The translations under genes were made by a program, and so were the position numbers. The notes under the pieces were generated by a model. That model saw nothing but the letters and a program-made list of their open reading frames with translations. It did no database searches and was not told where the DNA came from. From positions 1-40,266 of the IMG/VR virus record IMGVR_UViG_3300032225_000732: DNA of 40,266 bases. One strand, 5' to 3'. Of the stretch, positions 2,213 to 3,723 are shown piece after piece (position 1 is the stretch's first letter; each line of letters opens with the position of its first letter). Origin of the DNA: a virus (lineage: Duplodnaviria; Caudoviricetes).

Positions 2213-2896
2213 CTAAGCGATGATGCACCATCCTGAGCTGGGTCCATCGACCATCCAACGCGGCTCGAAGGTCTTGTAGTCGTAGTGTTGTTTGGCGCCA
2301 AAGGTGCTGCCGTACTCGCCGGTTGCAACGTTCATAGCGCCCCATGGATCGTGGACGATGTAGCCGGTAGCGTCGTACCCAATCATGCACAGCCAGTGGC
2401 CGCCACCTGATGGTGCTGAAGCTGACCCATGGTGCAGAAAACCAGCAGGCACCGGCTTGCCTGCGTCAATCTGCTGCTGCACTAAAGCGCGATTGCCGTT
2501 GGTCTTGAAACGCGCTGAAACACCGTAATGCTGTAACGCCTTGATCTGCACCGTCGAGTTGGTCGTGTCTCCGATCGTGAACACCGTCTTGATGTATTCA
2601 TCATCCGAGTGGATGACACCCGGCTTGAGCGTCATCAGCAGCATGGCGCAGCTTGAGCTGAAGCATGTCCGCCAGGCGTCGCGGTAGTTGTCCCGCTGGC
2701 TTTGGTACGGCGTAGGCAGTGGGTTGGTTGCCTGCTGTTTACCAGCCTGGCTCCAGGTCTTAAACCACGCTTGCTCGCGGCCAAGGATGTGCGGGTTGGC
2801 GTTGTTGATTGCCTCCTCCAGTTCGGAGATGGCGGCCATCTGGTAAGACAAACCTTTGTAATACTTGCAAAGGTCAATCAGTTTGATGCTGCTCAT
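2213..2896 (-). CDS. Endolysin, C39-like cysteine peptidase
   Basis: YQSQRDN..TCFSSSCAM (Cys), GGHWLCMIGYD (His), HDPWG; lies downstream of membrane genes. Confidence 0.8.
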   Translation of the reverse strand: MSSIKLIDLCKYYKGLSYQMAAISELEEAINNANPHILGREQAWFKTWSQAGKQQATNPLPTPYQSQRDNYRDAWRTCFSSSCAMLLMTLKPGVIHSDDEYIKTVFTIGDTTNSTVQIKALQHYGVSARFKTNGNRALVQQQIDAGKPVPAGFLHHGSASAPSGGGHWLCMIGYDATGYIVHDPWGAMNVATGEYGSTFGAKQHYDYKTFEPRWMVDGPSSGWCIIA

Positions 2897-3153
2897 TGGT
2901 TAGACCACGGGGATTGAATGCGCATCTCACCGCCAAGGTCGCGGCTGTCGCCTGTTTGCAACTCGTCGTTAATCGGCTGCTCGGTGTAGATCGGCTTTGG
3001 CTTCTGGCGTTCGATCTCGCAATCAATGACAGCCGCAGCTTCGGCTACAGCAACGTCAATCTTGGCGGGCAAGGTGGTCTCAAACTTCTTACGTTCGATG
3101 TACCGCTGTACCCGCTCAAAATCTGATCGCGTATCAAACTGCCAGATCAGTCC
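2893..3153 (-). CDS. -1 frame extension of the holin-like gene (predicted 133-aa fusion, 3293 to 2893)
   Basis: 86 open codons after A AAA AAG with no early ATG; its TGA overlaps the endolysin ATG (ATGA). Confidence 0.65.
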   Translation of the reverse strand, partial: GLIWQFDTRSDFERVQRYIERKKFETTLPAKIDVAVAEAAAVIDCEIERQKPKPIYTEQPINDELQTGDSRDLGGEMRIQSPWSNQ

Positions 3154-3293
3154 TTTTTTGGCTTCAGTGCCTTAAGGATTTGAAACACCAGTTGGATGAT
3201 GCTGTTTGCTTTCAATTTGGGATTGAGACCAATGATTTCGGATGCGGCTGCAACAGCAATCCAAAAGATTGGATTGGCAAGGATAGCTTCCAT
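3147..3293 (-). CDS. Holin-like small membrane protein (48 aa)
   Basis: MEAILANPIFWIAVAAASEIIGLNPKLKANSIIQLVFQILKALKPKKD; hydrophobic with basic C-terminus, upstream of endolysin; absent from the ORF track. Confidence 0.7.
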   Translation of the reverse strand: MEAILANPIFWIAVAAASEIIGLNPKLKANSIIQLVFQILKALKPKKD

Positions 3294-3318: not shown

Positions 3319-3561
3319 TTAGCGCCGTAGTTCCAGCTTGATCAAGCGGACATCATGATCCATAACCTTGTCTTCAACGTCACTAAGCTTTTTTTGGATC
3401 AACTGCTGGTTGCTGAGCACGTCGTCCAGCTTGGTTGGGACGGTGTAGCAAAGATAGAAGATGCCAGCACCAGCGCTGCCGACAGCAAGGACAACGATGC
3501 CAGCCAAAGCTTCTTGACGGACGCCGCGCCAAAACCCTGGTTGTGGTTCAGGGCTTGACAC
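3319..3561 (-). CDS. Lysis-cassette membrane protein (TM plus coiled coil)
   Basis: TM segment ALAGIVVLAVGSAGAGIFYL, then heptad-like region. Confidence 0.7.
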   Translation of the reverse strand: MSSPEPQPGFWRGVRQEALAGIVVLAVGSAGAGIFYLCYTVPTKLDDVLSNQQLIQKKLSDVEDKVMDHDVRLIKLELRR

Positions 3562-3585: not shown

Positions 3586-3723
3586 TTAACCCTTGCCTTG
3601 GCCACGACGCTTTTTACGGCCATGGTTTGGGCGTGAGCGTTTGCCTTGCCCTTGGTTAGTAAGCTTAGGTCTACCCGGCTGGTGGATGATATGTGATGCA
3701 CCAGCTTTTGCGCGTACTGCCAT
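3586..3723 (-). CDS. Small basic protein (45 aa)
   Basis: MAVRAKAG..RSRPNHGRKKRRGQGKG; TGATG overlap with upstream ORF. Confidence 0.6.
   Translation of the reverse strand: MAVRAKAGASHIIHQPGRPKLTNQGQGKRSRPNHGRKKRRGQGKG

What the first reader, a model, noticed from the sequence alone, without database searches (positions are those of the whole stretch)
2893..3293. Candidate programmed -1 frameshift in the lysis cassette: one holin-like gene, two products
Seen: a 48-aa hydrophobic ORF (minus strand, 3293-3147) ends CCA AAA AAG GAC TGA, placing A_AAA_AAG (3153-3159) just before its stop. The -1 frame is open for 86 codons (GLIWQFDTRSDFERVQRYIERKKFETTLPAKIDVAVAE..DLGGEMRIQSPWSNQ). It has no ATG until 10 codons from its end, fills the whole 250-bp gap, and stops in an ATGA overlap with the endolysin start. 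Weak stems (CTGATC/GATCAG or ATCTGG/TCAGAT) lie just 3' of the slip site. Known: A_AAA_AAG is an efficient bacterial -1 slip site (dnaX, IS3 family). Phage frameshifts are best known in tail chaperone and capsid genes, whereas holin/antiholin pairs usually arise from dual starts or separate genes. Inference: a short holin and a ~133-aa long form are made at a fixed ratio, and only frameshifted ribosomes reach the endolysin start. This could be a recoding-based lysis timer that also sets endolysin dose.
Basis: partly seen in the sequence, partly recalled or inferred. Interest (0 to 1): 0.85.

Follow-up and report, generated by a model that had tools for sequence, protein, structure and literature searches.

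The report
Conserved frameshift in cyanophage lysis gene
In many viruses of cyanobacteria, a tiny membrane-protein gene next to the cell-wall-cutting enzyme ends in a conserved "slippery" sequence that likely makes some ribosomes shift frame and build a longer second protein, a trick known from phage tail and capsid genes that our searches did not find described for this kind of lysis-region gene.

Summary
The holin label and the "lysis timer" remain inference.

- Motif: of 161 non-redundant related loci, 131 carry the -1 extension and 129 of these have X_XXA_AAG (AAA, CCC or GGG) 0-1 codon before the stop. The 20 loci with neither extension nor motif are natural controls.
- Selection: dN/dS is 0.12, and 0.16 upstream of any start codon. 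No start codon is conserved.
- Second family: a related small membrane gene joins the same extension through NNA_AAG in 10 of 10 cases.
- Stand-alone form: other cyanophages encode the extension as its own gene with its own start and membrane anchor, so the shift likely supplies that anchor.
The endolysin does not always follow the extension.

Verdict: a new use of a known recoding mechanism, untested in the lab.

The parts
3147..3293 (-). 48-aa small membrane protein (frame 0 product): hydrophobic helix, turn, amphipathic helix, Lys-rich tail; holin-like; PHROG 22542 (unknown function)
   Evidence: hydropathy peak 1.78 at residues 3-21, hydrophobic moment 2.21 at residue 31, net charge +3
3153..3159 (-). 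slippery heptamer A_AAA_AAG (predicted -1 shift site)
   Evidence: conserved or replaced by C_CCA_AAG / G_GGA_AAG in relatives
3147..3152 (-). one spacer codon (GAC) and the frame-0 stop (TGA); the fixed distance of 0-1 codon is the only conserved 3' feature, a candidate stimulator
   Evidence: 126 of 129 have one spacer codon, 3 have none; no conserved structure or SD
2893..3153 (-). -1 frame extension, 86 codons: long helix, Pro-rich linker, conserved C-terminal motif; member of a cyanophage-wide family (weak hits to PHROG 3316 and 22672)
   Evidence: dN/dS 0.12; alignments A2 and A4; AlphaFold helix 10-52
2213..2896 (-). predicted endolysin (N-terminal module plus C39 peptidase-like domain); its ATG overlaps the extension's stop
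3319..3561 (-). 80-aa protein with one predicted TM segment and a likely coiled-coil tail; alternative holin candidate in the same cassette
   Evidence: hydropathy peak 2.07 at residues 19-37; no named family
3586..3723 (-). 45-aa very basic ORF (PHROG 516, unknown function), upstream in the same gene run

Best explanation
The 48-codon gene ends in a conserved slippery sequence at which ribosomes likely shift -1, so it is predicted to give mostly a short membrane peptide plus a minor 133-aa form in which that peptide likely anchors a cyanophage-specific helical domain to the membrane, both probably acting in host lysis. Shown from sequence: the motif, the open and selected -1 frame, the lack of its own start, and the strict pairing of motif with extension. 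Inferred: two tRNAs re-pair one base back (tRNA-Lys moves from AAG to AAA), probably helped by the pause at the stop one codon on. The share is likely low, a fraction of a percent to a few percent, as in lambda G/GT. The purpose is likely a fixed many-to-one ratio of a holin-like peptide to an accessory lysis factor. Cyanophages without the shift encode that factor as a separate gene with its own hydrophobic N-terminus. Coupling to the endolysin start is probably a side benefit, not the main purpose. Odds by step: frameshift used 0.9; products act in lysis 0.7; short product is the holin proper 0.45.
For: (1) In 161 non-redundant loci, 129 of 131 with the extension have X_XXA_AAG (AAA 122, CCC 6, GGG 1); 20 have neither. 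(2) A further 100 loci: 36 of 37 adjacent family-1 cases have the motif (CCC 21, AAA 14, GGG 1); the one without it has a GTG start over the stop and its own anchor. None of these junctions repeats the first set. (3) 122 of 123 x-Lys-Lys ends use NNA AAA AAG against 9.9 expected from codon usage (kin, so not independent). (4) AAA, CCC and GGG + AAAG are the three best -1 motifs in E. coli (PMC4066793, passages). (5) A second small-membrane family has the extension in 10 of 70 loci, all 10 with NNA_AAG + one codon + stop. (6) dN/dS 0.12 overall, 0.16 upstream of the first ATG/GTG/TTG, against 1.4 and 2.5 in the other frames. (7) The codon over the stop is ATG or GTG in 0 of 129 loci. (8) Stand-alone homologues with their own start and anchor exist, e.g. 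S-CBS2 gp48 (hhalign 91.8%). (9) The next gene belongs to the endolysin group in 134 of 159 loci. (10) 38 of 41 picocyanobacterial genomes show no tRNA-Lys(CUU) by a BLAST-based look.
Against: No protein-level or ribosome data. No conserved 3' structure or upstream SD, and the bare motifs gave only about 0.3% in E. coli, up to 3.7% with good context (PMC4066793). No named holin family is hit. The extension is dispensable in some phages: 20 loci lack it, and no homologue was found in 18 of 20 records searched, including both records at least 90% complete (loose first look, many fragments). Stand-alone homologues in T4-like cyanophages sit beside UvsW, nrdB or thymidylate synthase, not lysis genes. 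L208 has a broken heptamer with an intact extension (it keeps GTA_AAG), and L261 uses a GTG start. Three of 41 host-family genomes do have tRNA-Lys(CUU).
Confidence: 0.65

Rival explanations
1. One reading: the shift exists mainly to deliver ribosomes to the endolysin start, so the shift rate sets endolysin dose and lysis time.
For: The extension's stop overlaps the next start in 127 of 139 frameshift loci. L035, L036 and L138 keep the heptamer and the overlap although the extension has shrunk to 15-18 codons. When the extension is wholly lost, the frame-0 stop often takes over the overlap (10 of 20; e.g. L040, L042, L130, L160). SD-like pairing upstream of the next gene is weak (12% at -4 kcal/mol or better).
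Against: Overlaps are common here anyway: 8 of 25 neighbouring pairs overlap and 15 of 25 lie within 5 nt. The extension is under protein-level selection and exists as a free gene. It is followed by terminase small subunit in T7-like phages, by a non-endolysin gene in 9 of the 10 family-2 cases, and by an opposite-strand gene in S-EIV1.
Confidence: 0.15
2. The frameshift is real, but the short product is not the holin. The 80-aa upstream gene is the holin, and the short/long pair is an outer-membrane or thylakoid-disrupting accessory (disruptin-like), or a membrane factor outside lysis.
For: The short product is small, cationic (+3) and strongly amphipathic, like phiKT gp28 (bioRxiv 10.1101/515445, abstract). 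Cyanophages PSS2, P-HM2, P60, S-CBS4 and S-PM2 are listed as spanin-less (PMC6139136, passages), and the first four carry an extension homologue. In S-CBS2 and S-CRES3 the pair has no annotated endolysin within the 1.5-1.8 kb fetched.
Against: It has a TM-grade hydrophobic segment and only a modest charge. It lies directly before the endolysin, or in T7-like phages at the position of the T7 holin gene (T7 gene order recalled).
Confidence: 0.3
3. No fusion: the downstream frame is a separate gene made by termination-reinitiation at the CTG/TTG that overlaps the stop.
For: CTG or TTG overlaps the stop in 104 of 129 loci. True separate-gene versions exist (S-CBS2, L261, L461). Coupling and recoding can be interchangeable (PMC3711429, passages).
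Against: 25 of 129 have CTA, GTA or TTA there, which are not starts, and 0 of 129 have ATG or GTG. Reinitiation does not explain the codon bias at the motif or its switch among three shifty forms. The versions with a real GTG start lack the motif.
Confidence: 0.06
4. The fusion arises by RNA polymerase slippage on the A run, not by the ribosome.
For: A6 run in most loci; lambda-type products would look the same.
Against: C_CCA_AAG (27 loci), G_GGA_AAG (2) and TCA_AAG (9) have only three A's, and the motif is always in the codon phase needed for tRNA re-pairing.
Confidence: 0.03
5. Assembly error or a decaying, once in-frame gene.
For: A few in-frame fusions are on record (P0019, P0003, P0120).
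Against: The same phase holds in more than 160 loci with a median extension identity of 39%, with purifying selection and no indel at the site. The listed in-frame records each rest on one contig.
Confidence: 0.01

Closest known systems
Lambda gpG/gpGT tail assembly chaperone frameshift (PMC5009743, passages)
   Same: Low-level -1 shift near the 3' end of a short gene gives many short and few long molecules that share an N-terminus; X_XXA_AAG class motif.
   Different: This gene is a membrane peptide in the lysis cassette, not before the tape measure gene. The window has its own separate G/GT-type site at 16499-16493.
Bacterial NNA_AAG and X_XXA_AAG shift sites: dnaX, IS3 family, IS1222, Bacillus cdd (PMC4066793, PMC5009743, passages)
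   Same: The same motif set, including the hexamer form seen in family 2.
   Different: No conserved SD or stem-loop/pseudoknot here; only a stop 0-1 codon on. That geometry matters in pea enation mosaic virus.
Alphavirus 6K/TF (PMC5009743, passage)
   Same: A small hydrophobic membrane protein and a -1 transframe form with a hydrophilic C-terminus, from one gene.
   Different: Eukaryotic RNA virus, no homology; here the short product ends right after the site. An analogy only.
Holin/antiholin pairs by dual start (lambda S105/S107; recalled)
   Same: Two membrane proteins from one lysis gene at a set ratio.
   Different: Those differ by two N-terminal residues; these would differ by an 86-residue C-terminal domain that also exists as a separate gene.
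MS2 lysis gene, once proposed to be switched on by a frameshift in the coat gene (passage and reference titles in PMC10885494 and PMC5009743)
   Different: RNA phage; a later title in the same reference list attributes activation to termination at the coat gene; no conserved fusion domain.
phiKT gp28 disruptin (bioRxiv 10.1101/515445, abstract)
   Same: Small cationic amphipathic peptide in a spanin-less phage.
   Different: The 48-aa product has a TM-grade segment and lower charge; sequence homology was not tested; no frameshift is mentioned in the abstract.

Membership tests
Bacterial programmed -1 ribosomal frameshift | Slippery motif in frame 0 within the overlap of two ORFs | tested here: met
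Bacterial programmed -1 ribosomal frameshift | Motif conserved beyond what the protein needs | tested here: met
   122 of 123 against 9.9 expected; three heptamer forms and a hexamer form
Bacterial programmed -1 ribosomal frameshift | Downstream frame is coding yet has no start of its own | tested here: met
   dN/dS 0.16 upstream of the first start codon; no conserved start
Bacterial programmed -1 ribosomal frameshift | Stimulator: upstream SD or downstream stem-loop/pseudoknot (common, not universal) | tested here: not met
   pseudoknots and long-range pairs were not searched
Bacterial programmed -1 ribosomal frameshift | Host reads AAG with tRNA-Lys(UUU) alone | tested here: inconclusive
   38 of 41 host-family genomes show no CUU gene, 3 do; actual host unknown
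Bacterial programmed -1 ribosomal frameshift | Fusion protein detected | not testable with these tools
   needs a reporter, MS or ribosome profiling
Holin | Small protein with at least one TM segment and a charged C-terminus | tested here: met
   hydropathy 1.78 over 19 residues, Lys-rich tail; simple scale, no topology predictor
Holin | Next to an endolysin gene | tested here: met
   134 of 159 loci
Holin | Homology to a described holin family | tested here: not met
   Pfam, PHROGs and NCBIfam give only unknown-function families; the Atlas gives only hypothetical clusters
Holin | Timed, lethal permeabilisation of the inner membrane | not testable with these tools
   needs a complementation assay
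Dual-start holin/antiholin | Two products from two nearby start codons | tested here: not met
   one aligned start in alignment A1; the predicted products differ at the C-terminus
Tail assembly chaperone G/GT | Located between the major tail and tape measure genes | tested here: not met
   lies before the endolysin; a separate site fills that role at 16499-16493
Spanin (i/o or u) | Lipoprotein signal, or N-terminal lipobox with a C-terminal TM segment | tested here: not met
   no Cys in the 48-aa product; extension hydropathy peak only 1.16
Disruptin (phiKT gp28) | Cationic amphipathic peptide of about 56 aa that disrupts the outer membrane | tested here: inconclusive
   size and amphipathy fit, charge +3 only; activity not testable; homology not tested

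The most novel reading that the evidence does not exclude
Cyanophages, long listed as lacking spanins, use an unrecognised lysis factor: a membrane-anchored helical domain found in sipho-, T7-like and T4-like cyanophages, which breaches an extra barrier (outer membrane or thylakoids) or tethers the endolysin. A large group of them makes this factor by grafting it onto the holin through a stop-stimulated -1 frameshift, which fixes the holin-to-factor ratio and passes ribosomes to the endolysin. It would be the first holin gene with a recoded second product.
Probability: 0.3. Interest if true: 0.9.

Novelty: new variant of a known kind. Interest (0 to 1): 0.76.

Why it matters
Phage frameshifts are known mainly in tail chaperone and capsid genes. 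This would be a third widespread class, in lysis-region membrane genes of abundant freshwater and marine cyanophages, including cultured ones (S-CBS1, S-CBS3, KBS-S-2A, S-EIV1, S-B28, 7B11-B, WH11-B). Their records annotate the second frame with inconsistent starts or miss it. It would add an example of -1 recoding on cyanobacterial ribosomes with no apparent RNA stimulator. It also points to a specific candidate for the open question of how spanin-less cyanophages finish lysis. Natural fused, separate and deleted versions make the function directly testable.

Tried and rejected
- RNA stimulators: a mild folding excess 3' of the site (mean z about -0.6 to -0.9 against synonymous shuffles) does not peak at the usual spacing. 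Three of four clades show no conserved fold; one shows z -3.4 with SCI 0.21. No SD signal upstream.
- Named families: none for either product. PDB sequence search found nothing below E 0.25. The Atlas was blank or hypothetical only.
- Folding P0019, a database in-frame fusion used as a stand-in for the long form, gave a low-confidence model (pLDDT 57), not used.
- Complex prediction of the extension with the endolysin N-terminal module returned no answer; it is no evidence either way.
- Trees of the short gene are poorly resolved: 12 changes of the frameshift state, at least 4 forced, with trait columns removed; 10 and 4 with them in. No origin or order is claimed.
- The RNA run X20 covers only parts of the region as contigs and shows nothing about expression. 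The small-share runs were not used for habitat.
- The promoter scan found nothing. Earlier scan findings: none.
- Literature: ten searches listed no paper on a frameshift in a holin gene or in this cyanophage gene, judged from titles and abstract starts. 'Holin' occurs 0 times in the held text of PMC5009743 (first 300,000 of 449,034 characters), PMC10885494 and PMC3711429. Their supplements were not read, and subscription journals, which may include the original genome papers of these phages, are not in the library.

Full report
Setting. The window is a whole virus record of 40,266 bases with direct terminal repeats. Of the 16 annotated phage records that match the 48-aa protein, 14 are Synechococcus phages or cyanophages, so the host is inferred to be a picocyanobacterium. 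On the minus strand the order is: tail fibre assembly gene, a 45-aa basic ORF, an 80-aa TM protein, the 48-aa ORF, a 250-base gap, a 227-aa predicted endolysin, dCTP deaminase.

Observation. The -1 frame is closed by TAA four codons upstream of the heptamer, so it cannot start inside the short gene. It is the only such site in the window; the chance level is 0.045 per genome in 200 shuffles. No indel is listed at the site in contigs of four runs.

Conservation. Loci came from searches with the short protein, the extension and their alignments. Of 265 loci, 257 had a hit to the short-protein profile and 256 a complete ORF; these collapse to 161 by exact junction sequence. Of the 161, 131 carry the extension in the -1 frame, and 129 of those have X_XXA_AAG one codon (126) or zero codons (3) before the stop: AAA 122, CCC 6, GGG 1. 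Twenty have neither motif nor extension. Ten have the motif without a profile hit: five are T7-like phages with a divergent 47-62 aa extension, one is cut by the contig end, one has an internal deletion (34 aa), and three are reduced to 15-18 codons. The two exceptions are L208, which keeps GTA_AAG, and L261, where a GTG start overlaps the stop. A later set of 100 loci gave 38 adjacent cases: 36 family-1 with the motif (CCC 21, AAA 14, GGG 1), one family-2 already seen, and one without a motif that has a GTG start and its own N-terminal anchor. Part of the sample was retrieved with the extension as query, so the share of loci that have it is inflated; the pairing of motif with extension is not affected.

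Is the motif selected? Among extension loci ending in x-Lys-Lys, 122 of 123 use NNA AAA AAG, against 9.9 expected from the window's codon usage. The five extension-less loci with Lys-Lys near the end do not use it. These are kin, but the 127 extensions aligned have a median identity of 39% and fall in 19 clusters at 70%. The tree needs at least 4 changes of state (few columns). The three heptamers seen are the three most efficient in E. coli (PMC4066793, passages). A second small membrane family (weakly related: hhalign 39.5%, E 3e-4) has the same extension in 10 of 70 loci, all with NNA_AAG + one codon + stop (TCA 9, GTA 1). None of the other 60 has that arrangement; three have AAA_AAG directly before the stop. 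NNA_AAG hexamers are a described low-level class (PMC5009743, passages).

Is the -1 frame a gene without a start? dN/dS is 0.12 over 48 disjoint pairs (3,655 codons) and 0.16 over the 1,019 codons upstream of the first ATG/GTG/TTG; the other frames give 1.4 and 2.5. In 116 of 129 loci no start lies upstream of the site in that frame, and in 96 of those none appears before codon 15. The codon over the stop is CTG 97, CTA 20, TTG 7, GTA 3, TTA 2, and never ATG or GTG. Gene callers give it scattered starts.

Stimulator and rate. The one fixed 3' feature is the stop. In pea enation mosaic virus a stop one codon after the heptamer is needed for shifting (PMC5009743, passage), so I infer the stop as the likely stimulator; this is untested. 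Bare motifs gave about 0.3% in E. coli and up to 3.7% with good context, so a low share of long product is expected. In the family of a Cyanobium genome, 40 of 41 genomes hit tRNA-Lys(UUU) and 3 have a second gene confirmed as CUU. The same paper notes that a CUU tRNA does not preclude such motifs.

What the extension is. AlphaFold gives one confident helix (residues 10-52), then a Pro-rich linker and short strands (pTM 0.39). The fold search's top dozen hits included proteins of several Synechococcus phages. Following them showed stand-alone genes. S-CBS2 gp48 follows the same small membrane gene with a GTG start and no motif. S-CRES3, PSS2 and S-CBS4 have it near that gene; S-CBP2, P-RSM6, P-HM2, S-B64, S-CREM1 and B23 have it elsewhere (tblastn E from 6e-20 to about 1, so the distant ones are tentative). 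P60 and DSL-LC07, whose short gene has no shift, carry it at another place. Sixty-two of the 100 later loci are stand-alone. The stand-alone forms I read begin with their own hydrophobic or Trp-rich amphipathic segment. I infer that the domain needs a membrane anchor and that the shift supplies one.

Lysis. The next gene falls in one endolysin group in 134 of 159 loci. Five of its seven representatives hit lysozyme, glucosaminidase, M15 or C39 families, and two hit nothing. In T7-like phages the gene sits between tail fibre and terminase small subunit, the position of the T7 holin (recalled). It has one TM-grade segment and a basic tail, but no named holin family matches, and the 80-aa neighbour is a rival holin. 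Against a lysis role for the extension: the myovirus copies lie among replication genes, and 18 of 20 records lacking the extension at this locus showed no homologue elsewhere (most are fragments). For it: several cyanophages that carry it are listed as spanin-less (PMC6139136, passages); one record has the extension's C-terminal part fused to a lysozyme-like sequence (P0152, read by eye), and L144 runs in frame into the endolysin.

Coupling. The extension's stop overlaps the next start in 127 of 139 loci, and three shrunken extensions keep both motif and overlap. But 8 of 25 neighbouring genes in the window overlap anyway, and the next gene is not always an endolysin. Coupling is possible but is unlikely to be the reason for the shift.

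Comparison and novelty. It works like lambda G/GT and resembles alphavirus 6K/TF by analogy, but belongs to neither family. Ten searches and three recoding papers read by passage gave no holin or cyanophage case; supplements and subscription journals were not seen. Papers seen: passages of PMC5009743, PMC4066793, PMC6139136, PMC10885494, PMC3711429, PMC13704836 and PMC3931495; the abstract of 10.1101/515445; the rest as search listings only. Verdict: a new variant of a known kind, well supported by comparative evidence, with function still inferred. Interest 0.76.

Noticed in passing
window 16499-16493 (minus): A second predicted -1 site, A_AAA_AAC + one codon + TAG, at the end of the 118-aa ORF before the tape-measure-like gene; the -1 frame is open for 62 codons to 16311. 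It looks like the classic tail chaperone G/GT shift and has the same motif-codon-stop spacing.
   Followed up: partly
L231, L237, L244, L195, L199, L265-L344: A second family of small membrane proteins, often beside endolysins, joins the same extension through TCA_AAG or GTA_AAG in 10 of 70 loci.
   Followed up: yes
L351 (S-CBS4) about 1420-1720: The annotated gp062 appears to be in the wrong frame; another frame encodes an extension-family protein right after the lysozyme.
   Followed up: partly
L144:1632-2603; protein P0152: The -1 frame runs in frame into the endolysin in L144, and P0152 joins the extension's C-terminal part to a lysozyme-like sequence. Either could be an assembly artefact.
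   Followed up: no
L353:1282-1701, L501, L506, L511, L533: S-CREM1 gp30 and similar stand-alone homologues have a basic N-terminus, a hydrophobic stretch and a conserved Cys, like a lipoprotein signal but not matching the usual lipobox (recalled pattern); B23 gp333 and P0203 lack the Cys.
   Followed up: no
window 3586-3723 (minus); L350 about 1220-1360: A 45-aa, very basic ORF (PHROG 516) lies upstream of the cassette; a similar unannotated ORF lies between the small membrane gene and the extension homologue in PSS2.
   Followed up: no
window 2729-2896 (minus): The endolysin's N-terminal ~56-aa module is shared by endolysins with different catalytic domains and has no Pfam family.
   Followed up: partly
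L392, L393, L394: Three picocyanobacterial genomes carry a tRNA-Lys(CUU), in two cases right beside the UUU gene; such hosts might lower the shift rate.
   Followed up: no
window 3388-3395 (minus): An A7G run inside the 80-aa gene reads CAA AAA AAG in frame, which is also an A_AAA_AAG; it lies mid-gene and its conservation was not checked.
   Followed up: no
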